DNA of 64,000 nt from Octopus vulgaris (lineage: Eukaryota), in assembly GCA_951406725.2 (NCBI GenBank), contig OX597818.1, forward strand, positions 29,326,001 through 29,390,000, given 5' to 3'. The notes below the pieces were generated by a model. It worked only from the letters and a program-made list of their open reading frames with translations, searched no databases and was not told the origin of the DNA. This document shows positions 608 through 61,558 of the stretch, piece after piece; the stretch's first letter is position 1; each line of letters opens with the position of its first letter. A program made the translations under genes and the position numbers.

Positions 608-626
608 CTATCAAAAACAATAATGA
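608..626 (+). CDS. Host gene micro-exon 1 (19 nt, phase 1->2): xIKNNN(E)
   Basis: Long poly-T tract + gacAG acceptor, GTAAGT donor; frame joins the 2599 exon without stops. Confidence 0.65.
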
Positions 627-2598: not shown

Positions 2599-2615
2599 AT
2601 TTTCATCAACAAAAG
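2599..2615 (+). CDS. Host gene micro-exon 2 (17 nt, phase 2->1): EFSSTK
   Basis: ttttcttcaatttaatAG / GTAAGT; 19+17 nt restores phase 1. Confidence 0.65.
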
Positions 2616-12559: not shown

Positions 12560-13644
12560 AGTCACACACACACACATACTCACGTACCCACGAACACACC
12601 TACTCCCAACACACCACACACACACAACGTACATGCACATGTATGCACACATACTTCCACACCTATACACACACCCACACACCCCCATGCGCACACACAC
12701 ATGCCCGTGCACACACACCGGGGACAATACTCATACAGATACGCACACTCCTATAAACACCTAGCTGAGACGCACAGATACACGCACGTAAGCGCACACA
12801 CGCACATGTACCTTACGCCCACACAACTCCAAACCCCCCACATGTATACATTCACACACACACATACGTACACACACATAATACATACATAGATACATTC
12901 ATACATACACACACACGCATACATACATACATTCATACATACATACACACACACACATACATACACACACATATACCCACACACACGCACGCACACATAC
13001 ATACACACACATACATACATGCATACATACACACACATACACACACATACATATACATACATACACACACACATACACGAATACACACATACATACACAC
13101 ACACATACACACATACATACACACATACACACACATACATATACATACACACACATACATACACACATACACACACATACATATACATACACACACATAC
13201 ATATACACACGTACACACACGCACATACACACATACACGCATGCACACATACATACATATATACACATACATACGCACATACGTACACACACACACTTAC
13301 ATACATACATACATATACACACTCATACATACACACACGCATACACACATACATACACACATACATACATAGACACATATATACATACACACACACATAC
13401 ATATACATACATACGGACACACACATGCACACATACACGCATGCACACATACATATATACACGCACATACATACTATACACACATACACATACACACATA
13501 CATACACACACGCGTACATATACATACATACATACACACATACACACACACATACACACACACGCACGCACATACATACATACATACACACACATACATA
13601 CACACACACACGTACATACATACACACACACAAACTTACATACA

Positions 13645-13691
<47 letters not shown>

Positions 13692-14751
13692 ACACATACA
13701 TACATACATACGCACATACATACACACATACACACACACATACACACACATACATACATACACACACACACATACACTACATACATAGATACATACACAC
13801 ACATACATATACATACATATGTACACACACGCACATACACACATACACGCATGCAAAAATACATACATACACACATACGTACATACATACATACATACAC
13901 ACACACTTATACACATACACACACACATACATACATACGTACGTACATACATACATACACACACACACATACATACATACACACATACACACACACATAC
14001 ACACATACATACATACACACACGCATACATATACATACATACACACATACACACACACATACATACATACACACACGCATACATACACACACACATACAC
14101 ACATACATACATACACACACGCATACATATACATACATACACATACACACATACATACACACACACATATAAACACACATATAAGCCTCTACATTGTACA
14201 CACGCACACATATATACATACATTCACTCGCACGCATGTACACACACACGCACACACACACACATTTACATATATATATATACTATACACTCACACACAC
14301 ATACACACGTACAAACACACCAAAACTCACATACACACCGACAGATATACATACACAATACACACCTATCCGCGCACGCACACATACACACATACAAATG
14401 CACACATACATGCACACACATACACGTACATACACTCTCACACAAATGAACCCACACATACATCCCTACACACACGCACGTACAAGCACACACGCACTAG
14501 GTTAAGCAGCTACTCGCCACACACCCACACTCTACGCATACACACATGAACACACACATGCACACACACACACACTACAAACAACACACACACATGATAC
14601 ATATAGCCCTTTGTTTTTTGACCTGGCTTTGACCTGGCTTGATACAAACAGCTAGTAGTCATAAAGGAGTGCCTTATGACAGCTGACTTTGTCATTGCTT
14701 ATTATTCACCAAAAATACACACACACACGCACAAACACACTTGTCATCCTT

Positions 14752-16329: not shown

Positions 16330-18200
16330 TTGCATTTGATGAGGCTGCAAGGAGAGAGAGAGAGACACTACTATGAAAGGTTGCTAAATGAAGAGAATAA
16401 ATAGGAGGAAGAAAGTCTGCCAAATGTTGACCCAACAGAGGGACCAGCTATCTGAATTGACAGTACCTTGGTAGATAAAGCAATTAAGGGTATAAAGACA
16501 GGGAATGCCTCCAGCCCATCAGGAATCACCGCAGAGATGCTTAAAATATCTGGCGGTGTTGGCTATAGTCTAGTCACCTGTATAGTCAATTTAGGTGATA
16601 CATGAAGGAGTCATACCTAATAAGTGGTGTAGCTGCACCATGGTCAACTGCTACAAAGGTAAAGGTGATGCATAAGATACAAATAATTACAGAGGTACCA
16701 AGTTATTGGATCAGGTAATGAAAGTCATGGAGAGGGTCATAGCCCAACTAATTAGGGAGAGAGTCAGTCTCGATGAGATGCAGTTTGGGTTTGTGCCAGG
16801 GAAAAGCACCACTGATACTATAGTTCTGGTAAGACAGTTGCAGGAGAAATACCTAGCCAAAGATAAACCTCTGTACCTAGCTTTCATTGACATGGAAAAA
16901 GCCTTTGACAGGGTCCCCCAATCCCTTATCTGGTGGTCAATGTGGAAACTAGGGATAGATGATTGGTTAGTGAGAACTGTACAAGCCATGTACAGGGATG
17001 CTGTCAGTAAGGTGAGGGTTGGCAACAAGTATTCTGAAGAATTCCAGGTAGGCGTAGGGGTCCATCAAGAATCAGTCGTCAGCCCCATCTTATTCATCAT
17101 AGTCCTCCAGGCAATAATGGAAGAATCCAAGACAGGATACCTCTGGGAGCTTCTCTATGGTGATGGCCTTGCTCTAATAGCTGAGTCACTGTCAGAACTA
17201 GAGAAGTTTCAGGTGTGGAAGCAAGGTCTAGAATCGAAGGGCCTTAGAGTCAATCTAGCAAAAACCGAGTATTAAAATGTAGGAAGGCAGACAAACCACA
17301 AATCCCTTCAGGTAGATGGTCCTGCTCAATCTGTAGAAAAGGTGTAGATAGAAATTCCATAAGATATACCCAGTGTAAGCTATGGACACACAAGAGGTGC
17401 AGCAATATCAAAGGACCTGGGATGACGTGGTGAAACACAAGCTTCAAATGTTTGGCCTCACCAAAGCGATGACAAGTGACCGAGACCTTTGGAGATATGC
17501 TGTGCTTGAGAAAACCCGGCAAGCCAAGTGAGACTGTAACTGTGGCCTATGCCAGTGCAGCATAACCAACCCATTTCAGAGTACCCTTCAATCATTGGGC
17601 AATAAACTGCGCTTACGAAGACCTGTTGAAGCAAGTGAAATCCTTGTCATGGCCAATGACTGTACTGCCTGATTGTCACCCGTGCCAATGGGACGTTAAA
17701 AGCACCATTTGAGCATGATCATTGCCAGTGCCAACTGACTAGTTCCCATGCCGGTGGCATGTAAAAAGCACCATTCAAGTGTAGTCAATGCCAGTGCTGG
17801 CTGGTGGTACGTAAAAAGCCAGTACCTGACTGGCCCTCATACTGGCAGCACATATAAAGCATCCACTTCTCTCTCAGAGTGGTCGATGTTAGGAAGGGCA
17901 TCCAGCTGTAGAAACTTTGCTGGATTGGATTGGAGCCTGGTACAGCCTTCCAGTTTGCCAGTCCTCAGTCAAACCGTCCAACCCATGCCAGCATGGAAAG
18001 CAGACGCTAAATGACAATGATGATGATGTGTATATATGTATATGTCTGTATACGTTTATATGTATGTATGTAAACATCACCATCATATATTTAATGTCTA
18101 CCTTGTATACTGGCATGCGTTGGATGGTTTGACAGGAGCTGACTAAGCAGAAGACTGCACGAGGCTTCAGTGTCTGTTTTGGCATGGCTTTTATGCCTAG
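16330..18200 (+). mobile_element. 5'-truncated RTE LINE
   Basis: RT ORF 16706-17275 (QFGFVPGKST, DMEKAFDRVP, LLYGDGL); ~59-bp tandem repeats in the 3' UTR; (GAT)n tail near 18010-18028. Confidence 0.9.
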
Positions 18201-19901: not shown

Positions 19902-19949
19902 CAATTAATACTATAGATGGAAGAGATCTTCAACATCGTAATACAGAAG
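19902..19949 (+). CDS. Host gene exon 3 (48 nt, phase 1->1): AINTIDGRDLQHRNTE
   Basis: Branch-like gctaat + ccatttgtttccAG acceptor, AAG/GTATTT donor, open in the chain frame. Confidence 0.6.
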
Positions 19950-21138: not shown

Positions 21139-21195
21139 ATGTACACGAGGTTGCCAATGCCATCTATGATTCATCTGGACACTTAACTGACCTAA
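21139..21195 (+). CDS. Host gene exon 4 (57 nt, phase 1->1): DVHEVANAIYDSSGHLTDL (NxxY)
   Basis: attttcAG acceptor; weak GTATAT donor; open, symmetric phase. Confidence 0.6.
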
Positions 21196-32068: not shown

Positions 32069-32110
32069 ATACGGAAGATATTTATGTTAATGTTACACAG
32101 AAACCTAACA
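32069..32110 (+). CDS. Host gene exon 5 (42 nt, phase 1->1): NTEDIYVNVTQKPN (YVNV)
   Basis: tttttatttcatctcttAG / GTAAGT, both strong. Confidence 0.8.
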
Positions 32111-32961: not shown

Positions 32962-35900
32962 ATCATCATCATCGATTAACGTCCATTTTCCTTGCTAGCA
33001 TGGGTTGGAGAGTATGACAGAGGTCTAGAGAACCAGCTGTTCCAATCTGGTCCGGTAGAATTTCTACTGGTGGATACCCTTCCTAATACCAACGACTCCA
33101 AGAATCTAGTGAATGCTTTTTATGTGCCACCAGTACAAGAGCCAATAAGGTGGGCCTGGCAACAATCACATTCAGCTGGTGCTTTTTACATACCACTGGC
33201 ACAGTAGCCAGTCAGTGGGTACTGACATCGGTCATGATCGGTTGATGCTTTTTATGTGTCACTGGCACAGGAGCCAGTGAGGCAGACCTGGTATCGACCA
33301 TGTTCAGATGGTGCTTTTTACATGCCACCAGCATGCGAGCCAGTCTGAGGGTACTGGTATCAGCCATGTTCAGTTGGTGATTTTTACGTATCACCGCCAT
33401 GGGAGCCAGTCAAGGAGCACCAGCCCCAGCTACGATATTGATTTTACTTGACTCAACAGGTCTTCTCAAGCATATCATGTCGCCTGACGTATCAGGAGTA
33501 TTCTTAACAAGGCTAGGTGTGCATGGCTGTGATCTCACTTTAGTTACCGGGTCTTCTCAATCACCGCACAGCTCCAGATGTCCCTGTCTTCTCTCATTTC
33601 CTTTGTGAGGCCCAATGTTCAAAGGTCACACTTCACCACCTCTTGTCTTCCTGGATCAACCTCTTCCACCAGTTCCTTCTACAGTTATGGAGTGGTACTT
33701 CCTTACACAGCTGTCTTCATTCATACATAATACATGGCCATACCAGCGCAGTTACTTCTCTTGCACACCACATTTGATGCTTCTTATGCCCAACTTTTCT
33801 CTCAGGGCGCTTACACACTGTTGTGTATGCATACTGACATTACACATCCAGCAGATCATACTATCTTCATTTCTTTCAGGCCTACACATGTCCTCAGCAT
33901 TCATGGCCCATGTTTCACTACTGTGTAGCATGGCAGTTCGCACACATGCATCATACAGTCTACCTTTTACCCTCAGCGAGAGGCCCTTAGTTGCCAGCAG
34001 AGGTAGGAGTTCTCTGAACTTTGCCCAGGCTATTCTTACTCTAGTCGCTACACTCTCAGAGCAATCAGCCCCACTACAGACTTTGTTGCCTAGGTACCAG
34101 AAGCTATTAACTACTAGTTTCTTCCCCTGGAATGTGATGGAATCTGTTTTCTGTACATCTCCAGTGTTTATTGCCCCAGTGCATCAGCCACACACAAAAA
34201 CTATTGTCCCAGTTAAACTTCCTTTGATATTGCTGCACCTTTTGTGTGTCCATAGCTTACACTGGGTACATCATGTGGAGTTTCTACCCACGCCTTTTCT
34301 ACAGATCGAGCAAGGCCATTTACCTGAAGGAGGTTGTGATTTGACAGCCTTCCTACTTACTAAGACTTTGGTCTTTGCTAGGTTAACCCTTAGGCCCTTT
34401 GATTCTAGACCTTGCTTCCTCACCATGGTCAACTGCTACAAAGGTAAAGGTGATGATTTAGATAGAAATAACTACAGGGGTATCAAACTGCTGGATCAGG
34501 TGATGAAGGTCACAGAGAGGGTCATAGCCCAACTAATTAGGGAGAGAGTCAGTTTAGATGAGATGCAGTTTGGGTTCATGCCAGGGAAAAGCACCACTGA
34601 AGCTATATTTCTGGTAAGACAGCTGCAGGAGAAATACCTAGCCAAAGATAAACCTCTGTACCTGGCTTTCGTTGACATGGAGAAAGCTTTTGACAGGGTC
34701 CCCCGATCCCTTATCTGGTGGTCAATGAGGAAACTAGGGATAGATGAATGGTTAGTGAGAGCTGTGCAAGCCATGTTCTGGGATGCTGTCAGTAAGGTGG
34801 GGTTTGGTAATGAGTATAGTGAAGAATTCTGGGTAGAGGTAGAGGTCCACCAAGATTCAGTCCTCAACTCCCTCCTATTTATCATAGTCCTCCAGGTAAT
34901 AACAGAGGAATTCAAGACAGGATGCCCCTAGGAGCTCCTCTATGCTAATAACCTTGCTCTAATTGCTGAGTCACTATCAGAACTAGAGGAATGAAGCCAC
35001 TATGCTCTGCTGGACGTATAATGTCAGTGTTCGTACTCGACAGAGTATAAGTACCTTGAGAGAAAAGTTGGACCTAAGAAGCATCAGATGTGGTGTGCTA
35101 GAGAGATGGCTGCACTAGTATGGTCATGTGGTGAGAATGGATGAGGATAGCAGTGTTGAAAAGTGTCACACCCTAGCAGTTGAGGGAACCTGTGGATGCG
35201 GTAGACCCAGGAAGCATGACCTTCGAACATTAGGCCTCACTGAGGCAATGACTAGCGATCGAGGCCTTTGGAAATGTGCTGTGAGACCATAACCCGTGGC
35301 CTATGCCAGTGGTGTAACCAGCCCACTTATGCATACCTATCCTTCATTGACACTAAACTCTGCTTGCGAAGATCTGTTGAGGCAAGTGAAATTGAAATCA
35401 AATTCGATGACAGCACCGCATGACTGGGATCCATGCAGGTGTGAAAAAGTGCCACACCCTTGCAGTAGAGGGAACCTGTGGAAGAGGTAGACCCAAGAAG
35501 ACCTGGGATGAGGTGGTGAAGCATGACCTTCAAGCGTTGAGCTTCACCAAGGTGATGACAAGTGACCAAGACCTTGAGAAGACCTAACAAGCCAAGTGAG
35601 ACCATAACCGTGGCCTATGCCAGTGCAGCATAACCAGCCCATTTAAGAGCACCCTTCAATCATTGGGCAATAAACTGTGCTTGCAAAAACCTGTTGAGGC
35701 AAGTAAAGTCGTTCTCAAGGCCAATGACATTAGCAACTAATTGGCACCTGTGCCAGTGGCACGTAAAAAGCACCATTCAAACGTGGTTAATGCCAGTGCT
35801 GGTTCACTGGTCCCATCCAGGTGGCTTGTAAAAAGCACCATTCAAGCATGGTCGTTGCCAGTGCCACCTGACTAGTCCCCATGTTGGTGGCATGTAAAAA

Positions 35901-39882: not shown

Positions 39883-39924
39883 ATATGAATGCTAAAGTCA
39901 ATAAACCAGGAAAGAAAACTAATG
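39883..39924 (+). CDS. Array exon A (42 nt): NMNAKVNKPGKKTN, tyrosine-less
   Basis: ttaattccttaaAG / GTAAGC; in-frame 9-nt gap relative to the 51-nt copies. Confidence 0.75.
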
Positions 39925-40765: not shown

Positions 40766-40816
40766 ATGTGAATGAACTTTATGCCAAAGTCAATAAACCA
40801 AGCAAGCAAGCTGATG
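40766..40816 (+). CDS. Array exon B (51 nt): DVNELYAKVNKPSKQAD
   Basis: ttaattctttaaAG / GTAAGC, phase 1->1. Confidence 0.85.
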
Positions 40817-42317
40817 GTAAGCCTAATTATATTCAGTCCATTCATAAAACTTCATAATCTTCAAGAGGTATTAACTGACACATATCACAAAGAATACTTG
40901 TGCTTTTATGGGACAATCTACTGAGCTCTAAAGCCAAGATCAATGGCTGGTTCAAGGTCCCAAATACAAAACAAAAAGTAACATGTGAAATACTATTTTG
41001 GAAATTAACATAACCACTAAGAGACAGGTTTGGAAAGAATGAAAGAAAGGGAGCTTTATGTTGTATGAAAGACTTGGTGAACCAACCTTAGAAACTACGC
41101 CAAAAATTTAATCAACCAAAAATGTTTTACTATATACAAAGAAAGACTGAACACAGTTACTACTACACAGTTTGAGTAGAAATAACAGCGTAATATAACC
41201 TAATACATAAACAAAAAAATTTTAATCTACATATTGCATTACATCTATTATAAACTTTACTCTTGGAGATTTCAAATATATCTTCCATGTTTTCTATATT
41301 AATCCTTAATAACATGTTAGGCCATCCAAATTGACAGACAGTCTGCAAGAGAGAAGAGACACTGGGTAGATGTATAGAAATTTAATAATTTACACAGTCT
41401 TTCTGATGACAATAGAAGAGAGTGAATTGACTCCAAGTGGAAGCAGCAGAGGTTCCAGCTATCTAATTTCACAGTATTACAACACGTGGAGCAATTAAAC
41501 AATCAAATTTAGGGAAGTTAGTTCATCTCTTGAGAGTAGCTTCTGAGAGATTTAGAAAATCCATGGGTCATTTAAAAATTATTTAAGAAAAGGATTAACC
41601 TGGATGAGATACTGTTTGGTTTTGTGCCAAGCTCTATCATTGAGATCATATTCCAATGAAGTACTTAGCTAGTAGTAAGTTCCTATACTAAGCATTTGTG
41701 AATTTAGAGAATGGGACTAACCTTTTGACTGAGTCATTCACTATCTGATCTGGTAGATGCCAAGGAAAATGGACTTAAATGGATAAGTTGTGTGATCCAT
41801 AGAAGCCATGTGCAGAATCAGTGTGAGCAAGTTAAGCAATAGCAATGAATTTAGTGTGCATATGGGGGTTTATCAGGACTCCGTGTTCAGCCTTTCCTGT
41901 TTATATAGGCTTCCAAGCTATAAAAGATGTATTTAAGACAAATAAACTTGGAAACACTTGTATGCTGATGGCTTAGCTTTTATATCAGAATTTGTAGAAC
42001 AATTGGGTCAGATAGAAATTCCAAAAATGATAGCAAAATCTGCACTTAAAAGATTTTAACTTGAATCTAGTAAAAACAAATGTTTTACCATGTAGGAAGA
42101 AAGACTGAGCAGACCCCATCAAGAAAATGAATGTGCTCTGTATGCAGGAAATGGGCTGAGTGTTACCAATCTAAACAATGCATACAGAAATTTCTGCTTA
42201 TACTTCTTTGAATATTTATGTATGTGAGGGAGTGAATGTTTCTCATTAATATTAGCTCTGATACTTTCAGCACAACATTACTATATTTAAATCATATCTT
42301 TCTTTAATTCCTTAAAG

Positions 42318-42368
42318 ATGTGGAAGACCTTTACGCTAAAGTCAACAAACCACGTATGCAAACTGATG
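42318..42368 (+). CDS. Array exon C (51 nt): DVEDLYAKVNKPRMQTD
   Basis: ttaattccttaaAG / GTAAGC, phase 1->1. Confidence 0.85.
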
Positions 42369-43515
42369 GTAAGCATAATTATATTCAGTCCATTCATAAA
42401 ACTATATAAACTTTAAGAGATATTAACTGATACATATAACAGAGAAAATATGAGACAATCTGCTGAGGTTGAAAGTACAAATCAATGGTTGATGCAAGGT
42501 CCCAAATAAAAAAACACAGTAACACATAAAATACTACTTTGGAAATTACCATAACAGATAAGAAACAGATAAGGTTTGGAAATGGTGAATTTAGAGAAAA
42601 GAACAAACTCTTTGACTTAGTCATTCAGTATCTGACCAGGTAGATGCTAAGGAAACTGGACTTACACGAATAGGTTGTGTGAGTCATACAAGCCTTGTGC
42701 AGAATCATTGTGGGTAAGGTCAGCAAATAGCAATGAATTTAGTATGCATATGGAATTTTTCAGGACTCAGTGCTCAGCCTTCCTGCTTATTTAGGCCACT
42801 AAAGTATGAAAGAGGTATTCTCAACAACTCACCTTGGAAACTAATACTAATGACTCTGTTGAACAATTATTCTTTTACTTGTTGCATTCATTTGACTTTA
42901 GTCAGAGAGTGGAGGTAAGGGAGCTTTATATAGTACCAAAGACTTGATGGTCCAGCCTCACCGAAATGAGATGATATGAGAGTATTATGATATGTGGATC
43001 AAGCCAAGGTGTGTTGTGATAGCAAAGATAAACTGGTTTTAATTATGATCGCTGGACAAACCTATGCTAGCATTGACAGTGGTTGATCAATGAGAATGAT
43101 GATAAGATAAATTAAGCAAAGAGTTAGCAATTATTTAGGCCAATTTTCCTTTGAATACAAAGCACAGTGTTATATAACCTACATAAAACAAAAGTTTACA
43201 AATGTGTATTTTGCATTACATGTAAACATAGATTTTCATGTGTATGAACAATTTTTACCTTTATTAATCTTCAGTTGTACTTCACTATACCACTCAATGT
43301 CTTTTATTCTATTGTTTTTTTTCTGTTAATTTGGTAATGATAATCTGAGCTAAATGAAGAAAATAATATTATATTACTAATCCCTGCTTATACAACTTTG
43401 AATGTATATGTGTATGAGAGAGTGAATGTTTTTCATTAATATTTGTTCTGATACTTTGAATATATCCTCAATATATTTTAAATGTTATCTATAATCATGT
43501 CATCATTTTTTAAAT

Positions 43516-43566
43516 TTGTGGTCAATCTTTATCCTAAAGACAATACAAGTAAGAAGAAACCTGCTG
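43516..43566 (+). pseudogene. Degenerate array exon D (acceptor AG->AT); possible 27-nt exon 43540-43566 DNTSKKKPA
   Basis: Homologous to the 51-nt exon (NLYPKDN..); donor GTAAGC intact; internal ctttatcctaaAG in phase. Confidence 0.65.
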
Positions 43567-45293
43567 GTAAGCATGATTATGTTCAGTTCATTAATATAAC
43601 TAACAAGAGTTTGAGAGGTTTTAACTAACATATATGACAAAAATTATGTTTCTATGATTATAACAGTAGATTATAACAACCTTTACTGAACCATATGCTG
43701 AACTCTATAGATTAGATAAGTGGCTGGTGCAAGGTGACACACACTGAGACAATATTATAGGTAGCACCATAACAAGTGAAAGACTTGTAGAAAGGAGGCA
43801 TTAAGGAAAATATCAAACAACTAGAGAAGCCAAATTGTGGCTATACATAGCAAAGGGAAGGGCAAAAAAAGCAGAAGTTTGCATGTATTATGCAAGATGA
43901 GGATCAAACATGCAAGTCCATCCAAATTGGCTGACAGTCTGCAAGAGAGAAGAGGCATTCTATAAATATATAGATTAACAATGGCTTCCTCAGTCTTACT
44001 GATACCAAAGTAAAGACTGAATTTATTCCTAGTAGAAGTAGAAGGTCTAACAGCATTCCAGTTTTACAGTTTCATGACAGTGCAATTAAAGAATGAAAAG
44101 GTAGGAAATGTAGCTGCTCTCTTGAGACTAGATATTTAGAGGTTTAGAATATCCATGGGTTATTGGAAAGTTGATTAAGTATAGTATCAATCTGGATATG
44201 ACAAGAAGCTGTATCATTGAGCTCATATTCCAAATGAAATATATACAAGAGGTACTTAGCTTTGAGTAAGCTCCAATACCAAGCATTTGTGAATTTGGAG
44301 AAAGGAACAAACCCTTTGACTTAGTCATTTAGTATCTAACCTGGTAGATGCTAAGGAAACAGGACATATATGAATAGGTTGTGTGAGCCATACAAGCCTT
44401 GTGCAGAATCATTATGGGCAAGGTGAGTAATAACAATGGATTTAGTGTGCATATAGGGTTTATCAGATCTCAGTGCTCAACCTTCCTGCTTATTTAGGCC
44501 TCCAAACTATGAAAGAGGTATTCTCAACAACAAACCTTGGAAATTAATACTAATGACTCTGTTGAACAATTATCCTCCTACTTGTTGCATTCGTTTGACT
44601 GCAGCCATGCTGGTACACTGCCTTTTAGTCAAAGAGTGGAGGTAAGGGAGCTTTATATAGTACCAAAGACTTGAAGGTCCAACCTCAGAAACTACACCAA
44701 AATGAGATGATATGGGAGAATTATGATGTGGATGAAGCCAAGGTGTGCTGTGATTGCAAAGAGGAACTGATTTTAATCATGATCACTTGACAAACCTTTG
44801 CAGGGCATCAACAGTAGTTGATCAATGATGATGCTGATGATGACAAAATGCTGACTAATGATGACAAAATGAATTAAGCAAAGAGTTAGCAAATATTGAT
44901 CAATTTTTCTTTGACTAGGGACAACAGTGTAATATAACCTACATAAAACAAAAGTTTATAAATGTGCATTTTGCATTATATATAAAATTTACTCATATAG
45001 ATTTTGGAATGTATATCAACAATTTTTACGTTTATTAATCCTTAATTGTACTTCATTATCCCACTCAATATTTTTCATTGTTTGTTTTGTTTTAATTTGG
45101 TAATGATAATCTGAGCTAAATGGGGGAAATAATGTAACTTTCCTATTTCCTACATATACAGCACTGAGTATATTTGTGTATGAAGGAGTGAATGTTTCAC
45201 ATTGATATTTGTTCTGATACTTTCAATGCTTCATAAATATATTTTGAATATTATCTATAGTCATATGTCATTTATTTTTTTAACTCTTTAATT

Positions 45294-45344
45294 TAGTGTA
45301 TAATTTTTATCTTAAAGACAATACAAGTAGGAAGAAGCCTGCTG
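45294..45344 (+). pseudogene. Dead array exon E
   Basis: Homologous to D; ancestral acceptor lost and donor GT->AT (gctg/ataaac). Confidence 0.7.
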
Positions 45345-46186
45345 ATAAACATGATTATGTTCAGTTCATTAATATAACTAACAAGAGTTCAAGAGGTATT
45401 AACTAACATATATGACAATATATATGACAAAAATTATATATCTAAGACAGATTATACCAGAAGATTATCTGCAGTATTTATGGCACTATGTACTGAACTC
45501 TGTAGATTAGATAAGTAATGGTGCAAGGTGGCACACACTGAGACAATATTATAGGTAGCATCATAACAAGTGAAAGACTTGTAGAAAGAAGGCAATGGGG
45601 AAAATATCAAACAACTAAAGAGAAGCTAAACGTTGGCTATACATAGCACAAGGAAAGACAAAATAACAAAAGTTGGCATATATTGTGCAAGATGAGGATC
45701 AGTCATGCAAGTCCATCCAAATTGACTGACTGTTTGCAAGAGAGAAGAGACACTGGATAGATGTATAGAATAACAATGTCTTCCTCAGTCTTACTAATGC
45801 CAAAAGTAAAGAGAGTAAGTTTATTCCAAATAGAAGCAGAAGAGCTACCAGCATTCCAGTTTTACATGCACAGACGCAATTATTGAAGTACTAAATGGCA
45901 CGTCAAATGATATTTAATCGTGTGGAACATTTTACATGCATATCAATATTCTAAAGTTGGACCTACTATCCCTTATCCTAAAGCTGCTTCAGACAATTAG
46001 GAAGGGTTCCCGACTCGTTTCACCGTCTGCTTTCAATCTTGGATTGTGATTCGGCTCAGCCCAAACTCTCTCAGATTTTGTCTGCTGTTGCCTACTCCTA
46101 CAAGGATTGCAGCTGTTTTTTGTTCCTGATTTAACTCAGATTTGTCCTAGAGCCCATAGAAGATTGTTTTTGGTCAACCATCTATC

Positions 46187-47356
46187 ATGTCAGCTACCTA
46201 CAGATCGAAACTGAGATCTGCAAGAAGGGCTTCTCATCAAGATGATGGTCCTACCAATAGTCAGCTCAACGAGCAGTTGCTGTTGCTCAAACAAGAGGTC
46301 GAGCACCTAAAGTCTGTTGTTGCTCTTTTACTGAATAAACAGTCTCCTATTGATGCAGAGCCACCCTTGATTTCTTCCCTGGAGACATCCAAACCGAAGG
46401 GAACAAAATCGAAGCGGCCAAAGAAGGCGAAGGAACCGGCGGTCGTTTCTGCACATGATCGTTCCTGTGCGGATTCTTCCTCATCTGCCTTTTCGGTCCC
46501 GGAGGTTCCCCAACCTAATTTGAGGAGTGTAGACTCAAACCCACCTGAAGACCGTTGTTCTCCCCAAAAGAAGAAACGTAGTCAAAACTCCAGTGGGGCA
46601 GATTTAGCTATGAAACCTGATCACGATAAAATCTGTTTGGATTCTCCCTCACTTGTCCTTCCCATTAATGCCATTGCTCAACCAATTCTGAACGATCTCG
46701 ATGTGAGTTCATCTGGGGAGTGGTGCTCCCCCAAACCGAAGAAGAGGCAGTGCAGTTCCAAACCAGGCAGGAAAGTTATGACCACTAAACCCATTCCGAT
46801 CGACCCCACAGGCCGACATAAGTCTGATGGCTATGAAACCACCCTTTCGAAATCATCCAACGAAGAATCGAATACCGCAGCTCATAGTAGAGAACATTTT
46901 GCCCACTCAAGATCAGCAATAATTTATGGTAAAGCTGAATCCACCTGTGATACAGGCATAAACCGCCTAAAAGAAGACATTAATTTTGTTTCCATTTTAG
47001 TTGGAGAATTGTTCTCTGTCAACGAAAATGTCAGTATCCATAAGGTCGCTCGGCTAGGAAGATTCCAAGCGAACTCAACCTCAGATACTAGACCACGCCC
47101 AATAAGGGTAATCTTTTCTTCCGATCAGGAGGCTTCAACCTTTCTGAACAGAGCTCAGACGCATGTCTGGGAGGACCCCAATATGGGTTTTCGCGAGGAA
47201 TACTCACTGAGAGAGAGAATTCGCTGGAGAAACCTAATATCCGAACTAAAGATGACAAAACAGATGGGAGAGAAGGGTTTACGCATCCAAGACGGACAAA
47301 TAATCAAGTCCTACCTCTGGTCGCATGCTGTAGTGCTGACAGGGAAAGTGAATTGA
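46187..47356 (+). CDS. LINE ORF1 protein (389 aa)
   Basis: N-terminal coiled-coil-like segment; C-terminal AIIYGKAES..RLGR..RPRPIRVIF typical of CR1/L2 ORF1. Confidence 0.85.
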   Translation: MSATYRSKLRSARRASHQDDGPTNSQLNEQLLLLKQEVEHLKSVVALLLNKQSPIDAEPPLISSLETSKPKGTKSKRPKKAKEPAVVSAHDRSCADSSSSAFSVPEVPQPNLRSVDSNPPEDRCSPQKKKRSQNSSGADLAMKPDHDKICLDSPSLVLPINAIAQPILNDLDVSSSGEWCSPKPKKRQCSSKPGRKVMTTKPIPIDPTGRHKSDGYETTLSKSSNEESNTAAHSREHFAHSRSAIIYGKAESTCDTGINRLKEDINFVSILVGELFSVNENVSIHKVARLGRFQANSTSDTRPRPIRVIFSSDQEASTFLNRAQTHVWEDPNMGFREEYSLRERIRWRNLISELKMTKQMGEKGLRIQDGQIIKSYLWSHAVVLTGKVN

Positions 47357-50242
47357 GGGCAAATCGAAGTGAAGTAGATACCCCCGTCAACGATGCTATC
47401 TCTGATACCCCTTATTCTGCTTGTTCCCCAACTCCCGCCCCTCAAACTTCACAGCTCAGCATCGTCTATACCAACTCGTGCTCCTTATTTCCAAACTTCA
47501 GCGAACTATTTACACTGGCCATACGTGACTCCCCTGATGTGATAGCTATCACCGAGACTTGGCTGACTCCAGCAGTAAAGGACTCAGAAATCCACCTACA
47601 GGGCTACGTCCTCTTCAGATGTGACAGAGAAAAAAAGGCGAGTTGGAGGTGTTGCTGTGTATGTTAAATCTGATCACAAACCGTCCAGCGGTATTCTACC
47701 CACTAATGCTCAACCTACAACAAAATTCGATGCCGTCTATTGCAAGCTGAACCTATCCGAGTTTTGCCTGCCCGTGTTAGCTGTTTACAGGCCGCCTCTT
47801 GCCGACCCCCAGGACGATGCTCATTTACTCGAAGCGATAAGATTCGTTTCAGCTTCGCATGACTGTTTGATACTAGGAGACTTCAACGCTCCCACGATCG
47901 ATTGGCCCGCATCAATTTGTACAACATCTTCCCGGTTCGACCAGGCCCTTCTTGGCATGGCTGAAGATTGTTTTCTATCGCAACATGTTGAATATCCGAC
48001 AAGGCATCGGTCTGGGCAGCAGCCATCTATGCTGGATCTGGTATTCTCCCGCTATCCAAGATCAGTGTCAGACGTATCTGTGTGCGCCCCTCTTGCCAAG
48101 AGTGATCATGCGGTCCTGAAGTTCATCATGCACACAACTTTTTCTACGCCCACGACTACTTCGCTGCCACGTGGAGTCTTCTCTGCAATTAATCTTGAAA
48201 TTCTAACCGAGGCTTCCGCGCTTCTGGACTGGCGATCCCTGATGACGCTGTCCTCAGTTGACGAACTATGGTCATCCCTCAAAGCATATGTAATCTGGTT
48301 GACTGACCAGGCAGTTCCCGTTGGGCTTCCCATGAAGAAGAAACACAAGCCCTGGGTGACAAAGAAGGTTAAACGAGAACTTCGACTCAGAGATATTGCT
48401 TGGGCTGAATTCAAAAATCTGGATTCGACTGCAGCTTTTGAGGTGTACAAAACTCAACGAGACCGAGCCGTGAAAATTGAAAAGGAAGAACGCTTCAGTT
48501 ATGAATACAAAATCGCGGCAAATGCCAGTAGCAATCCAAAAACCTTCTTTGCCCATGTCCAATGGAATTCCCGCTTGAACAACCAGATTGCAACGTTGGT
48601 AGACTCAACAGGCGTATCGATTGAGGACCCTTATCAACAGAGTCAATTATTTGCTGAGGCTTTTTCAACTATTTTCAAACAAGATGATGGTCGTGAACCC
48701 CCTCCATTTGATAGATCGGTACCTCCAATGCTTCAATTGGTCATCACGCGGGACGAAGTCAAACGTGTTATTCAAGGCCTCGATGTCAACAAGGGTCATG
48801 GCCCTGACGGCATACACCCACAGGTTATCAAAGCATTGGCTCCAGTCATCTGCGAGCCCTTAACACATCTATTCAATATGTCATTGGCGACGGGTGTTAT
48901 ACCTGCGGACTGGAGAACAGCGATAATCTGCCCAATTTTCAAGAAAGGGAGCCGCGAAGACCCGCTTAACTACCGACCGGTTTCCCTTACATCAATAATC
49001 AGCAAGATGTTCGAAACCATCCTGAAGAAAAGTATGATGCTCCACCTCCAAAACACAGCCTCTATCTCTGATTCCCAACACGGCTTCGTGCCGAAGAGAT
49101 CATGCTTGACCAACTTACTGGTAATGGAAAAATTGGTGATGCGCATCCTCGATGATAGTGATGCTGTTGACATCGTTTTATTGGACTTTGCCCAAGCTTT
49201 TGACTCGGTAAACCACCGCCTATTACTTGTCAAGCTTCAAGCATATAGTTTCCATCCGGATATTGTACGATGGGTTGGTGCCTTCCTCTCAGATCGCTCC
49301 TTCCAAGTCCAAGTTAATGGTTCGCGGTCCGACGTCTCCAGTGCGAGCAGTGGCGTGCCTCAAGGTTCAGTGCTTGGGCCCTTATTGTTCTTAGTCTTCA
49401 TAAATGACTTGCCCGACGACCTCACGCAACACACCCTTCTATTTGCCGACGATATCAAACTGGTCGCTCCTCGCGGTGATATAGAGGATCTTCGTCGATG
49501 CCTCCACCAAATTTGGAGGTGGTCTAACGAATGGGACCTGTGTCTGAACGTGTCAAAGTGCTGTCATCTGCCTATTGGCTCTCCTCCTGCAACGCAACTT
49601 GATTTCGAGCCGGGTCGTCTGCTGCTGGAGAGGACTGATCAGATAAAGGACCTGGGTATCTTGGTGGATTCCTCATTTTCGCCTTCGGCCCAGTGCGTCC
49701 ATGCTGCCAACAAAGCACGCGGAATTCTGTTCTTGATTCGACGGTCATTCGGAATGCTCACAGCAGCCATATTCCTACCACTCTATGTCACGCTGGTGAG
49801 ACCCATATTGGAGTACGGGATTCAAGCATCTTCTCCTTATCTCCTCAAAGACATACAGCATCTCAAAAGAGTCCAGAAGCTGGCTACCCGCATGGTTCAT
49901 GGTCTCAAAAATTTGTCCTATGAAGAAAGGCTGAGGACGCTCGACCTTTATTCTCTAGAAAAACGCCGCCGCCGTGGTGATCTCATTCTCGCCCACAACA
50001 TCATAAGTGGAAAGTGTAACCTCTCGAAAGAGCTGTTCTTCACTCCTGCCCCAGAGCGTCGGCTGCGGGGTCATTCCAATAAGCTCTACCTGCAACGATT
50101 TCATCTCAATCGAAGGAGAGGAGCTTTCTCCGTCCGGGTTGCGGATCCGTGGAATAAGCTGCCAGACGAGATGGTGAAGATGCCGACGACCGCTTTGTTC
50201 AAAGCCTCCCTTGACCTCAAGTGGCCTGAACTCTTTACATGA
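47353..50242 (+). CDS. LINE ORF2 AP-endonuclease/reverse transcriptase, single +1 frameshift at A7 run 47630-47636
   Basis: YTN, ITETWL, GGVAVYV, LGDFN, SDH; NYRPVSLTS, QHGF, GVPQGSVLGPLLF, FADD, YEERL..RRRRGDLI. Confidence 0.92.
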
Positions 50243-51172
50243 ACACCACCCTGTACTTAACTCTATGTCCCCCTACATGGCCTTGCTATTTGCTTTTGAG
50301 CCAAATTAACTAACTAACTAACTAACAGCGTTATAACAGCACAATTGAACAATGTAAAGATAGGGAAAGTAGCTGGTCTCTTGAGACTAAATATATAAAA
50401 ATTTGGAATATCCATGGGTTATTAGAAAGTTGATTAAGAATAGGGTTAACTTGGATATGCCAAGAAGCTGTATCATTGAGATCATATTCCAAATGAAATA
50501 ACTACAAAGAAGTACTTAGCTAGGAGTAAGCTCCTATACCAAGCATTTGTGAATTTGGAGAAAGGGACAAATCCTTTGGCTGAGCCATTCACAATCTGAT
50601 CTGGTAGTTGCTAAGGAAACTGGATTTTGATGAATTGGTTGTGTGAGCCATACAAGCCTTGTGCAGAATCACTGTGAGCAAGGTGAGTGATAGCAATGAA
50701 TTAAGTGTGCATATGGGGGTTTTCAAAACTCAGTGCTCAGCCTTTCCTGTTTCTTTAGGCCTCCAAGCTATATAAGATGTATTTTAGATAGATAACTTTC
50801 AAAACACATGTATGCTGATGATTCTGCTTTTATATCAGAATCTGTAGAAAAACTGGGTCAGATAGAAATTCCAAACATGATAGTAAAATCTGTATTTGAA
50901 GGGCATTAAATTTAATCTAGCAAAATATAGGAAGAAAGACTGGACTCAGATACCATCAGGAAAATGAATGTGCTCTTTATGCTGGAAATGAGCTGGTAGA
51001 AATATCATAAGGTGTTCCCAGTGTAAACAATACATACATACGTTCCTGCTTATACTTCTTTGAATATTTATGTATGTGAGGGAGTGAATGTTTTTCATTA
51101 ATATTAGTTCTGATACTTTCAGCACAGTATTACTATATTTAAATCATCATATCTTTCTTTAATTCCTTAAAG

Positions 51173-51223
51173 ATGTGGAAGAACTTTATGCTAAAGTTAA
51201 CAAACCACGTATGCAAACTGATG
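51173..51223 (+). CDS. Array exon F (51 nt): DVEELYAKVNKPRMQTD
   Basis: ttaattccttaaAG / GTAAGC; closest paralogue of exon C. Confidence 0.85.
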
Positions 51224-52053
51224 GTAAGCATAATTATATTCAGTCCATTCATTAAACTATATAAACTTCAAGAGATATTAACCGATATATATAACACAGA
51301 CAATCTGCTGGGGTTTAAAACCAAAATTAGTGACTGGTGCAAGGTCCCAACTAAAAAAACGCAAAGTGACACATAAAATCCTACTTTGGAAATTACCATA
51401 ACAGATAATAGACAGGTTTGGAGAGAGTGAACGTAAGGGAACATTATATAGTACCAAAGACTAATGAAAGTCCAGCCTCAGAAACTACACCAATATGAGA
51501 TGATAAGAGAGAATTATGATCAGTGGATCAAGCCAAGGTGTGTTGTGACAACCAAGAGGAAATGGTTTTAATTATGATGGCTTGACAAACCCATGACAGT
51601 CTTTGATCAATGTGATGACAATGGGGGCAATGATAATGACAAGATAAATTAAGCAAATAGTTAGCAAATATTTAGGCCATCTTTCCTTTCAATAGAGATG
51701 CCACTGTAATATAACCTACATAACACAAAAATTTATAAATGTGCATTTTGCATTACATGTAAACATAGATTTTCATGCGTATTAACAATTTCTACCTTTA
51801 TTAATCATTAATTGTACTTTATTTTATCACTCAGTGTATTTTCATTCTTTTGTTTTTTCTGTTGATTTGGTTATGATAATCTGAGCTAAATGGAGAAAAT
51901 AATAATATATTACTAATTCCTGCTTATACAACTTTGAATATATATGTGCATAAGAGAGTGAATGTTTTTCATTAATATTTGTTCCGATACTTTCAATACA
52001 TCATTTTAAATGTTATCTAGAATTATATGTCATTATTTTTTAACACCTTAAAT

Positions 52054-52104
52054 TTGTGTTCAATTTTTATCCTAAAGACAATATAACTAGGAAGAAGCCT
52101 GATA
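52054..52104 (+). pseudogene. Degenerate array exon G (acceptor AG->AT); possible 27-nt exon 52078-52104 DNITRKKPD
   Basis: Paralogue of D; GTAAGC donor intact; internal tttttatcctaaAG in phase. Confidence 0.65.
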
Positions 52105-53442
52105 GTAAGCATGATTCAGTTCATTAATATAACTAACAAGAGTTCAAGAGGTATTAACTAACATATATGACAATACATATGACAAAAATTATATATCTAA
52201 GACAGATTATAACAGAAAAAAATCTGCAGCTTTTATGGTACCTCATACTGAACTCTATAGATTAGATAAGTGATGGTGTAAGGTGGCACACAGTGAGACA
52301 ATATTATAGGTAGCATCATAACAAGCGAAAGATTTATAGAAAGGGGGCAATGTGGAAAATATCAAACAACTAAAGAGAAGCTAAATTTTGGCTATACGTA
52401 GCACAAGGAAAGGTAAAATAACAAAAGTTTGCATATATTGTGCAAGATGAGGATCAGTCATGCAAGGCCATCCAAATTGCCAGGCAGTCTGCGAGAGAGA
52501 AGACACACTTTAGATGTATAGAATAACAATGGCTTTCTCATTCTTACTGATGTCAAAAGCAAAGAGTGAATTTATTCCAAGTAGAAGCAGAAGAGCTACC
52601 AGCATTCCAGTGCAATTGAAGAATGAAAAAGTAGGAAATGTAGCTGGTCTCTTGAGAATAGATATTTAGAGATTTACAATATTCATTCGCTATTGAAAAA
52701 TTGATTAAGAATAAGATTAACCTGGATATGCCAAGAAACTGTATCATTGAGCTCATATTCCAAATGAAATAACTACAAATAAGTATTTAGCTAGGTGGAA
52801 GTTCCTATACTAAGCATTTGTGAATTTGGAGAGTAATTTGGACTGAGTAATTCACTATCTGGTCTGGTAGATGCTAAGGAAACCAAACTTACACGAATTA
52901 GTTGTGTGAGCCATAAAAACCGTGTGCAGATTCACTGTGAGTAAGGTGAGCAATCGCAATGAATTTAGTATGCATATAGGTTTTATCAGGACTCAGTGTT
53001 CAGCCTTTCCTGTTTATTTAGGCTCCAAACTATGAAAGATGTATTTTAGACAACCTTGAAACACCTTTATGCTTATGACCTAGTTTTTATAACAGAATCT
53101 GTAGAACAGTTGGGTTAGGCAGAAATTCCAAACATGATAGCAAAATCTGCATTTTAAAGATTTTAAATTGAATCTAGTAAAAACACATTTTTTACCATAT
53201 AGGAAGAAAGACTGAACTCAGATACTATCAGGAAAATGAATGTGCTCTTTATGTAGGAAATGAGCTGGTAGAAATTTCATAAGGTGTTCTTAGTGTAAAC
53301 AATGAATACATAAGTTCCTGCTTATACTTCTTTGTACCTTTATGTATGAGAGGGAGTGAATGTTTTTCATTAATATTAGTTCTGATACTTTCATCACAGC
53401 ATTAATATATTTTAAATAAAATCTTTCTTTAATTCCCTAAAG

Positions 53443-53493
53443 ATGTGAATGACCTTTATGCTAAAGTCAATAAACCAAGCAAGAAAACCTATG
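53443..53493 (+). CDS. Array exon H (51 nt): DVNDLYAKVNKPSKKTY
   Basis: ttaattccctaaAG / GTAATT, phase 1->1. Confidence 0.82.
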
Positions 53494-54315
53494 GTAATTA
53501 TATTCAGTCTATTAAGAAAACTACATAAACTTCAAGAGTTATTAAGTAATACATATATACATATAACACAGAAAACTTGTACTTTTATGGAAGAATCTAT
53601 TGAAGTCTAAAACCAACATCAGTGGCTGATGCTAAGTCCCAACTAAGCATATGTGACATGTGGTGAAGTGCTACTCAGAAATTACAATAACAGCTGAGAA
53701 AATTTGGAAAGAATTAAAGTAAGAGGGGCTTTATGAAGTATTAATGATGTGAAAGGTCAGCCTTAAAAACAACACCAAAATGAAAAAATATGAGAGAATT
53801 ATGATCAGTGGATCAGACCAAGGTGTTTTGTGATAGCAAAAAGGAACTGGTTTTAATTATGATTGCTTCACAAACTCATGCTAGTATGGACAGTGGATAA
53901 ACAATGATGAAGGTTATGGTGGCGATGATAACGATGGTGGTGATAAGATGAATTAAGCAAAGAATTAGCAAATATTTAGCCCCTTTTTCCTTTGAATAGA
54001 AACAAGTTATGTAACCTTATACATGAACAAAAATTCATAATTGTGCATTTTGCATTATTTCTATCATAAGCTTTGCTCTTGTAGATTTTCAAATTTATCT
54101 TTAATATTTTCTACCTTTATTCTTCTTTAATTGTACTTTACACCATTCAGTGGTTTTTTTTTTCTATTAATTTCATAATAGTATTAAGATGTAAATGGAG
54201 AAAATAATATGATATTGTTAATTCCTACTGTTAGTTCTGTTAGTTTCAGCACAATATTAATATATTTTAAATAATATCTATAATTGTATGGGATTTATTT
54301 TTTAATTTCTTAAAG

Positions 54316-54360
54316 GTGTGAATGATCTTAATGTCAATAAACCAAGCAAGAAACCTGAAG
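54316..54360 (+). CDS. Array exon I (45 nt): GVNDLNVNKPSKKPE, tyrosine-less
   Basis: ttaatttcttaaAG / GTAAGC; in-frame 6-nt gap removes the YAK core. Confidence 0.75.
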
Positions 54361-59696: not shown

Positions 59697-59747
59697 ATGT
59701 GGATGATTTTTATGCTAATGTCAATACACCAAGCATGAAACCTGATG
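59697..59747 (+). CDS. Array exon J (51 nt): DVDDFYANVNTPSMKPD (YxN)
   Basis: poly-T aattccttaaAG / GTAAAA, phase 1->1. Confidence 0.8.
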
Positions 59748-61032: not shown

Positions 61033-61088
61033 AAACAGAAGATGGTAGCTTGAATGACAATTATGAAAGCAACAATCAAAGTAATGAG
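61033..61088 (+). CDS. Penultimate exon (56 nt, phase 1->0): ETEDGSLNDNYESNNQSNE
   Basis: ctaaatatctAG / GAG|GTAAAT; supplies the phase switch the last exon needs. Confidence 0.75.
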
Positions 61089-61435: not shown

Positions 61436-61558
61436 CCTGAATCTGTCCAAGAATGTAACTATGCAGAACTTGAGTTTCTAAACAATCCTGGAACAAGCAA
61501 ACCAGCACCAAAACCTGTAGAAGAAACTATTTATGCTGATCTAATATTGGACAGTTAA
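61436..61558 (+). CDS. Terminal coding exon: PESVQECNYAELEFLNNPGTSKPAPKPVEETIYADLILDS* (ITIM/ITSM-like pair)
   Basis: ttctttttttaattcaatctAG acceptor, phase 0, 41 codons to TAA. Confidence 0.85.
   Translation, partial: PESVQECNYAELEFLNNPGTSKPAPKPVEETIYADLILDS

What the first reader, a model, noticed from the sequence alone, without database searches (positions are those of the whole stretch)
61436..61558. C-terminal ITIM/ITSM-like tandem (CNYAEL ... TIYADL) with 24-residue Tyr spacing
Seen: two YxxL motifs 24 residues apart at the C-terminus, the second with Thr at -2; the first has Cys at -2, so it is non-canonical. Established: PECAM-1, PD-1 and SIRPalpha use tyrosine pairs about 23-25 residues apart to engage the tandem SH2 domains of SHP-1/SHP-2. 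Inference: an inhibitory, checkpoint-like receptor in a mollusc, coupling SHP2 recruitment to a Csk-site array.
Basis: partly seen in the sequence, partly recalled or inferred. Interest (0 to 1): 0.7.

Follow-up and report, generated by a model that had tools for sequence, protein, structure and literature searches.

The report
Octopus Ig receptor SHP2-docking tail
This is the last exon of an unstudied octopus cell-surface immunoglobulin receptor, and it carries a pair of tyrosine motifs, also kept in the paper nautilus, that look like the docking sites vertebrate "brake" receptors such as PD-1 use; binding and an immune role are untested.

Summary
Observation confirmed. 61436-61558 is the final coding exon (40 aa + stop) of an Octopus vulgaris single-pass Ig receptor model (P0001, 794 aa). 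Y763 (CNYAELEF) and Y787 (TIYADLIL) are 24 residues apart. Neither meets the strict ITIM or ITSM consensus, but both fit published SHP2 SH2 preferences. Upstream lie four duplicated mini-exons encoding YAKVNK, identical to the Csk-binding CagA EPIYA-A site; Argonauta has two related units. None of 10 other Octopus family tails has this exon; 9 of 10 carry YxxM and YxN repeats instead, behind ectodomain blocks 60-90% identical to this one. Best reading: a SHP2 plus Csk docking tail that damps Src-family signalling (0.6), possibly the inhibitory member of an octopod paired-receptor family (0.35). Phosphorylation, binding, expression and ligand were not testable. ITIM-bearing Ig receptors are already known in oysters and other invertebrates, so this is a new variant of a known kind.

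The parts
61436..61558 (+). Terminal coding exon (P0001 755-794 + TAA) with the tandem tyrosine motifs
   Evidence: homologous to Argonauta P0017 864-906
61454..61477 (+). First motif CNYAELEF (Y763), predicted N-SH2 site
   Evidence: 5 of 6 N-SH2 pattern positions; Argonauta CVYADLDF
61526..61549 (+). Second motif TIYADLIL (Y787), predicted C-SH2 site
   Evidence: T-2, A+1, L+3 fit the C-SH2 library consensus; Argonauta TIYADINM
61033..61088 (+). Penultimate exon (phase 1 to 0) with Y746 (YESN; YENN in P0007, P0015, P0017)
59697..59747 (+). Extra 51-nt repeat exon with intact AG/GT (YANVNT), not in the P0001 model; candidate alternative exon
54316..54360 (+). Repeat exon that lost the tyrosine by a 6-nt deletion; in the model
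53443..53493 (+). Repeat exon 4, YAKVNK (Y709)
51173..51223 (+). Repeat exon 3, YAKVNK (Y692)
42318..42368 (+). Repeat exon 2, YAKVNK (Y675)
40766..40816 (+). Repeat exon 1, YAKVNK (Y658)
39883..39924 (+). Repeat exon that lost the tyrosine by a 9-nt deletion; in the model
32069..32110 (+). 42-nt exon with YVNV (Y630, YxN type); same exon class as repeats in paralogue tails
21139..21195 (+). Tail exon with Y615
19902..19949 (+). Tail exon
2599..2615 (+). 17-nt micro-exon; its peptide is also present in Argonauta
608..626 (+). 19-nt juxtamembrane exon, first exon of the gene inside the window (TM and Ig exons lie upstream of it)
   Evidence: no ectodomain match in the window
43396..43625 (+). 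Degenerate copy of the repeat unit (original acceptor AG lost)
45170..45403 (+). Degenerate copy of the repeat unit (acceptor and donor lost)
51932..52158 (+). Degenerate copy of the repeat unit (original acceptor AG lost)

Best explanation
The exon encodes a two-tyrosine docking site for the tandem SH2 domains of an SHP2-type phosphatase, at the end of an Ig receptor tail that also carries several Csk-type sites. Shown: receptor anatomy, motif sequences, spacing, conservation in Argonauta. Inferred from vertebrate biochemistry: on ligand binding a Src-family kinase phosphorylates the tail; pY763 binds N-SH2 and pY787 binds C-SH2 head-to-tail, opening the phosphatase; pYAKVNK repeats recruit Csk, which switches off Src-family kinases. 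The net effect is most likely a brake on tyrosine-kinase signalling at the membrane, with Csk also feeding back on the receptor's own phosphorylation. Cell type and ligand are unknown; haemocytes are a guess.
For: Single TM at about 551-573 after Ig domains. Argonauta hians homologue keeps both motifs 25 apart: 11 of 18 motif-block positions identical against 4 of 15 in the linker; 0 of 20,000 shuffles reach the exon alignment score. First motif has hydrophobic +1, +3, +5 and acidic +2, +4, the N-SH2 pattern of PMC8007070, and from pY on fits the PD-1 ITIM consensus Y(A/G)(E/V)L(D/E)F of PMC12151841. Second motif has T-2, A+1, aliphatic +3 as in the C-SH2 consensus and is a strict ITSM in Argonauta. 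PD-1 Y223/Y248 are 25 apart and bind N-SH2 then C-SH2. YAKVNK equals CagA EPIYA-A from pY to +5, a Csk-binding site. Among the four YAKVNK exons the motif codons show 4 synonymous and 0 replacement changes, the flanks 2 and 8 (Fisher p = 0.015, motif window chosen after seeing the data).
Against: Neither motif meets the strict consensus in O. vulgaris. Cys at -2 is not among the residues listed for N-SH2 binders. Motif-versus-linker conservation is not significant on one pair (Fisher p = 0.08 two-sided). Only one homologue has the exon; 0 of 10 other Octopus tails do, and a 40-residue search found only P0001 among 4 candidates. Pattern scores are not exclusive: tyrosines in P0008, P0014, P0016 and P0021 also reach 5 of 6, and 6 of 10 named paralogue tails contain a strict ITIM match. 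No binding, phosphorylation or expression data. SHP2 recruitment often gives positive output (established knowledge).
Confidence: 0.6

Rival explanations
1. SHP2 does dock here, but the receptor is an adhesion or guidance molecule (PECAM-1/PZR-like use) in neural, epithelial or vascular tissue, with a positive or cytoskeletal output such as Ras-ERK activation, not an immune brake.
For: Ectodomain matches are generic Ig adhesion proteins (Robo, contactin, CEACAM, Dscam, NEGR1). The tail has a YxN (Grb2-type) site at Y630 and Argonauta keeps YENN. Gab1, IRS-1 and PDGFR, which are activating scaffolds, use the same SHP2 motifs. No expression data.
Against: Csk-type sites point to Src inhibition. 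Rapid lineage-specific expansion with swapped tails resembles recognition receptor families more than conserved adhesion genes (inference). Nearest language-model clusters include several CD22, MAG and CEACAM1-like sets, though also fasciclin-3.
Confidence: 0.22
2. The tyrosines serve another partner: a single-SH2 protein such as SHIP, or the AP-2/AP-3 sorting machinery that reads unphosphorylated YxxL near the C-terminus.
For: Oyster CgNCAM1, with two ITIMs, was reported to interact with CgSHIP2. YxxL fits the YxxPhi sorting signal (recalled). Strict ITIM/ITSM tests fail in O. vulgaris.
Against: Conservation of Ala +1, acidic +2/+4, Phe +5, Thr -2 and of the 24-25 spacing is what bivalent SHP2 binding needs and is not needed for sorting (inference).
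Confidence: 0.13
3. The pair is a chance pattern or the exon is wrongly joined to this gene by the annotation.
For: 80 loose pairs occur in six-frame translations of the window. The P0001 model is visibly incomplete in its ectodomain (no signal peptide, large gaps against Argonauta). No transcript was seen.
Against: The independent Argonauta protein has the same order of tail elements ending in the same exon; splice phases fit throughout, including a 17-nt micro-exon; this pair outscores the other 79.
Confidence: 0.05

Closest known systems
PD-1 ITIM/ITSM tandem (PMC6994217, PMC12151841, PMC8631942)
   Same: Two tyrosine motifs 24-25 apart at the end of an Ig receptor tail; first fits Y(A/G)(E/V)L(D/E)F, second has Thr -2 and Ala +1; order matches N-SH2 then C-SH2.
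   Different: Cys at -2 of the first motif, Leu +3 and Asp +2 in the second; many Ig domains rather than one; long repeat tail with Csk-type sites; no sequence evidence of orthology. Convergent motif use, not a PD-1 homologue.
SIRPalpha (SHPS-1), PECAM-1, CD22/Siglec and CEACAM1-type inhibitory Ig receptors
   Same: Multi-Ig single-pass receptor with YA[DE]L motifs; SIRPalpha N-SH2 binders read YADL; CD22, MAG and CEACAM1-like clusters are among the nearest by model features.
   Different: Only generic Ig similarity; ligand-binding residues not tested. PECAM-1 spacing is recalled, not checked.
Oyster ITIM receptors CgNCAM1 and CgIgIT2 (PMC11841013)
   Same: Molluscan Ig receptors with cytoplasmic ITIMs described as immune-inhibitory in haemocytes.
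   Different: CgNCAM1 has three Ig and one FN3 domain and was linked to SHIP2; no FN3 was detected in P0001 or P0017. Sequences were not compared. CgIgIT2 was seen only as a cited title and a review sentence.
Hydractinia Alr and Botryllus FcoR families (bioRxiv 2022.03.04.482883; PMC12582321)
   Same: Lineage-specific invertebrate Ig gene families whose tails differ more than their ectodomains and carry different tyrosine motifs; Botryllus swaps motifs by alternative splicing.
   Different: Those lie in mapped allorecognition loci with ITAM/hemITAM members; the octopus paralogues carry YxxM and YxN repeats, and no function or polymorphism is known.
Helicobacter pylori CagA EPIYA region (PMC6952403, PMC4412286)
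   Same: Csk-binding sites (EPIYA-A reads YAKVNK from pY) upstream of SHP2-binding sites, with copy number varied by duplication.
   Different: CagA is an injected bacterial protein; the match is a six-residue convergent motif, not homology.

Membership tests
ITIM (strict) | (S/I/V/L)xYxx(I/V/L) | tested here: not met
   Cys at -2 of Y763 and Thr at -2 of Y787; same in Argonauta (consensus)
ITSM (strict) | TxYxx(V/I) | tested here: not met
   O. vulgaris Y787 has Leu at +3; the Argonauta homologue meets it
SHP2 bisphosphotyrosine docking motif | First site with hydrophobic -2, +1, +3, +5 and acidic +2, +4 (N-SH2 pattern) | tested here: met
   5 of 6 positions in both species; the miss is Cys -2
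SHP2 bisphosphotyrosine docking motif | Second site with T/V/I at -2, Ala +1, I/V/L +3 (C-SH2 pattern) | tested here: met
   lacks the aromatic +5 seen in the best binders
SHP2 bisphosphotyrosine docking motif | PD-1-like spacing in head-to-tail order | tested here: met
   24 and 25 residues against 25 in PD-1
SHP2 bisphosphotyrosine docking motif | Located in a disordered cytoplasmic tail | tested here: inconclusive
   After the single TM; Argonauta tail pLDDT under 50, but the whole model is weak (mean 51, 14 sequences)
SHP2 bisphosphotyrosine docking motif | Phosphorylation-dependent bivalent binding and activation of SHP2 | not testable with these tools
   No octopus SHP2 sequence was retrieved and phosphotyrosine cannot be modelled here
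Inhibitory immune (checkpoint-type) Ig receptor | Single-pass Ig-superfamily architecture | tested here: met
   Pfam Ig_3, I-set, Ig_2, C2-set_2 and one TM
Inhibitory immune (checkpoint-type) Ig receptor | Expression on immune cells and ligand-dependent inhibition | not testable with these tools
   No expression or functional data; gene id absent from the paper library
Paired receptor family | Near-identical ectodomains with different signalling tails | tested here: met
   N-terminal block 60-90% identical in the best-matching stretch across Octopus proteins; tails differ; rests on predicted gene models
Paired receptor family | Genomic clustering | tested here: inconclusive
   Same longest-contig length within each species and close LOC numbers; positions not measured
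Paired receptor family | Opposing outputs and shared ligand | not testable with these tools
   YxxM/YxN as activating is recalled motif knowledge; 6 of 10 paralogue tails also hold strict ITIM matches
PD-1, SIRP, PECAM-1 or Siglec orthologue | Specific ectodomain homology | tested here: not met
   Only weak generic Ig matches in solved structures, none to these proteins at the top; no cross-phylum tree was built

The most novel reading that the evidence does not exclude
Octopods evolved their own paired-receptor system. An ancestral Ig receptor with Csk sites and a SHP2 tandem (kept in Argonauta and in this gene) expanded in Octopus into a same-chromosome family whose ectodomains stayed alike while tails were rebuilt from duplicated mini-exons into PI3K/Grb2-type activating forms. 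This gene would be the inhibitory, self-sensing member, with brake strength tuned by the number of Csk exons copied or spliced in, converging on the CagA layout of Csk sites before SHP2 sites.
Probability: 0.35. Interest if true: 0.75.

Novelty: new variant of a known kind. Interest (0 to 1): 0.5.

Why it matters
Cephalopod immune receptors are poorly described. A defined candidate inhibitory receptor, with sister genes that share its ectodomain but carry other tails, gives a direct way to test whether octopuses balance activating and inhibitory recognition as vertebrate NK and myeloid cells do. The conserved Cys at -2 also suggests that strict ITIM/ITSM patterns miss real SHP2 sites in invertebrates. 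If the receptor proves to be an ordinary adhesion molecule, the finding is one more SHP2-docking tail.

Tried and rejected
Ab initio exon scanning of 1-40000 was too noisy to use; the gene was mapped from the database protein instead. No ectodomain or TM exon lies in the window. The 40-residue exon search found no relative but P0001; the Argonauta homologue came only from the exhaustive search. A search with P0017 returned only itself and missed the known 45%-identical Octopus family, so these word-index blanks say little. Cluster members of P0001 could not be listed, so O. sinensis or O. bimaculoides orthologues hidden in clusters stay unchecked. AlphaFold of P0017 was weak (mean pLDDT 51, pTM 0.31) and its fold search gave only generic multi-Ig hits with TM-scores under 0.25; not used as evidence beyond 'Ig chain'. 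The Atlas search with the tail gave hits of 0.82 or less (LST1, SCIMP, SIT among them), within the range of shuffled sequences. No complex prediction was sent: no SH2 partner was available. The membrane-proximal tree was mostly unresolved (8 of 11 inner branches open). Orthology to PD-1, SIRP or Siglecs was rejected for lack of specific homology. Literature: 'ITIM + octopus + immunoglobulin' gave 5 papers, none on this gene by listing; the locus id gave 0; searches listed nothing on this family. The library lacks most subscription papers, and no supplements were read, so expression tables naming this gene may exist.

Full report
Verdict. The step from 'docks SHP2' to 'immune checkpoint' remains an analogy. 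Interest 0.5; new variant of a known kind.

What is in the sequence. Positions 61436-61558 are a 123-nt phase-0 exon after a pyrimidine-rich AG acceptor, ending in TAA. The two Tyr codons are at 61460 and 61532, giving CNYAELEF and TIYADLIL, 24 residues apart. A search with the 40 residues found one protein among 4 candidates, P0001, an uncharacterised 794-aa Octopus vulgaris protein, at 100% identity. It has Ig domains (Pfam Ig_3, I-set, Ig_2, C2-set_2), one hydrophobic segment at about 551-573 and a tail of about 221 residues. Thirteen window exons, all with AG acceptors and GT donors, reproduce residues 579-794 exactly, including a 17-nt micro-exon at 2599-2615. The Ig and TM exons lie upstream of the window. 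The model's ectodomain is incomplete, with no signal peptide and large gaps against the Argonauta protein. No transcript was seen.

Is it more than chance? The loose pattern is common: 80 YxxL/I/V pairs 23-25 apart occur in stop-free six-frame stretches of the window. On a six-position SHP2 N-SH2 pattern summed over both sites this pair scores 9; the other 79 score 7 or less. In 100,000 shuffles of the tail, a loose pair 23-25 apart in the last 40 residues arose in 0.23%, a YA[DE][LIV] pair in none, and a loose pair 20-30 apart anywhere in 11.6%. The tighter patterns were chosen after seeing the sequence, so these are guides only.

Conservation. An exhaustive search of 1.84 billion representatives gave 310 hits at E <= 0.001, of which the best 150 were listed. 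Among the 159 stored proteins only P0017 matched the terminal exon besides P0001. P0017 is an Argonauta hians protein of 906 aa, 45% identical in the N-terminal block. It ends in CVYADLDF and TIYADINM, 25 apart, so the unusual Cys at -2 is kept. Motif blocks are identical at 11 of 18 positions, the linker at 4 of 15; this contrast is not significant on one pair (p = 0.08 two-sided). The exon alignment score was reached by 0 of 20,000 shuffles. Argonauta also keeps the order of tail elements: two YAxVN units, a YENN exon, then the tandem. A dated tree puts Argonauta-Tremoctopus at 46 Ma and Cirrata-Incirrata at 101 Ma (PMC7104719, passages); the Octopus-Argonauta split should lie between (inference). 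No squid, cuttlefish or bivalve orthologue was identified; one more distant unnamed relative (P0028, 36%) has a different tail.

Motif fit. Strict ITIM is (S/I/V/L)xYxx(I/V/L) and strict ITSM TxYxx(V/I) (PMC8631942 and PMC12151841, passages). The O. vulgaris motifs meet neither; the second Argonauta motif is a strict ITSM. SHP2's N-SH2 prefers hydrophobic residues at -2, +1, +3, +5 and acidic at +2, +4 (PMC8007070, first two of eight parts); Y763 has 5 of 6 in both species, missing only at Cys -2. From pY on it fits the vertebrate PD-1 ITIM consensus Y(A/G)(E/V)L(D/E)F. C-SH2 prefers T/V/I at -2, Ala +1 and I/V/L at +3 (PMC12878756 and PMC12151841, passages), which Y787 has; it lacks the aromatic +5 of the best binders. 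PD-1's Y223 and Y248 bind N-SH2 and C-SH2 in that order, and linker length matters (PMC6994217 and PMC10231330, passages). Against over-reading: tyrosines in four other family proteins also score 5 of 6.

The Csk array. Ten copies of a roughly 230-bp exon-plus-intron unit lie between 39.7 and 59.8 kb. Four encode YAKVNK, one encodes YANVNT and is absent from the model despite intact splice sites, two lost the Tyr by in-frame deletion, and three lost their original splice sites. YAKVNK is identical from pY to +5 to CagA EPIYA-A, and EPIYA-A/B bind Csk while C/D bind SHP2 (PMC4412286 and PMC6952403, passages; PMC3561454, passages, for related mammalian sites). Among the four copies the motif codons carry 4 synonymous and 0 replacement changes, the flanking codons 2 and 8 (p = 0.015, post hoc window), which suggests the motif is under selection.

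The family. A whole-protein search returned 14 other proteins, 13 named as Octopus and one without an organism. Within each species those with a contig share one longest-contig length and LOC numbers are close, which suggests a cluster; positions were not measured. Ten have tails and four are truncated models. None of the ten has the terminal exon (best local scores 20-40 against 80 for Argonauta). Nine of ten carry both YxxM and YxN motifs, which P0001 nearly lacks (0 and 1), but 6 of 10 also contain a strict ITIM match (tail starts of P0003 and P0008 were set by hand). By its N-terminal block P0001 nests among Octopus proteins, next to P0002 and P0009 (85-88% identical), and a P0001-Argonauta pairing is rejected at p-AU 0.025 (10 rows, long Argonauta branch). 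So the ancestral tail sits on an ectodomain that tracks the Octopus expansion: duplication with tail replacement, or ectodomain gene conversion. All are predicted gene models, and mis-joined models could imitate part of this pattern.

Mechanism. Most likely (0.6): a Src-family kinase phosphorylates the tail; the tandem binds and opens SHP2; the repeats recruit Csk; together they damp kinase signalling, and Csk feeds back on the receptor as described for CagA. Only the anatomy and conservation are shown; every binding step is inferred from vertebrate and bacterial data, and an octopus SHP2 and Csk were assumed from established knowledge, not retrieved. Rivals: SHP2 docking with adhesion or positive output (0.22); SHIP or sorting adaptors (0.13); artefact (0.05).

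Comparison and novelty. ITIM-bearing Ig receptors are described in oyster (PMC11841013, passages), and lineage-specific Ig families with mixed tyrosine tails in Hydractinia (bioRxiv 2022.03.04.482883, passages) and Botryllus (PMC12582321, passages). An ITIM-like pair in a mollusc is therefore not surprising. It works like a PD-1/SIRPalpha tail but is not a member of those families, and it fails both strict motif definitions. What seems undescribed is this octopod family, the multi-copy Csk exon in front of the SHP2 tandem, and the tail swapping. Searches: (listings only); two reviews searched by term showed nothing on it (PMC11999971; PMC13428168). Subscription papers and supplements were not seen. 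YxxM as PI3K-type, YxN as Grb2-type, YxxPhi as a sorting signal and the PECAM-1 spacing are recalled labels.

Noticed in passing
window 46160-50242 (+): A LINE-like element with two long open frames inside the repeat-exon region: 398 aa without Pfam match and 887 aa with endonuclease and reverse transcriptase domains, followed by short TAAC repeats near 50305. Open frames suggest a recent insertion; no target-site duplication was found.
   Followed up: partly
window 59697-59747: Repeat exon with intact splice sites that is missing from the protein model; its motif changed from YAKVNK to YANVNT, a YxN type, so alternative splicing could swap the partner.
   Followed up: partly
window 61033-61088: Y746 reads YESN here but YENN in P0007, P0015 and Argonauta; this copy may have lost a YxN site. 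Different terminal sequences follow this exon in the four proteins.
   Followed up: partly
window 42201-45403 and 51053-53545: Units at 42318 and 51173 are about 95% identical and each is followed by a degenerate copy, suggesting a recent multi-kb segmental duplication flanking the LINE.
   Followed up: no
P0003, P0004, P0007, P0012, P0014, P0015 tails: Paralogue tails are themselves long arrays of 14-20 residue repeats with YxN and YxxM motifs, up to 29 tyrosines in P0004; some units hold two tyrosines 8 apart, closer than an ITAM.
   Followed up: partly
window 5554-5952 (-), 7585-8034 (-), 16676-17275 (-), 33609-34931 (+): Fragments of a DDE transposase and of reverse-transcriptase retroelements in introns (the 7585 and 33609 frames judged by likeness to the 16676 frame).
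   Followed up: no
window 12700-14600: About 1.9 kb of CA/TACA microsatellite giving long spurious open frames on both strands.
   Followed up: no
window 62519 and 62661: ATTAAA and AATAAA, about 1.0-1.1 kb after the stop, are the only such hexamers downstream and are candidate polyadenylation signals.
   Followed up: no
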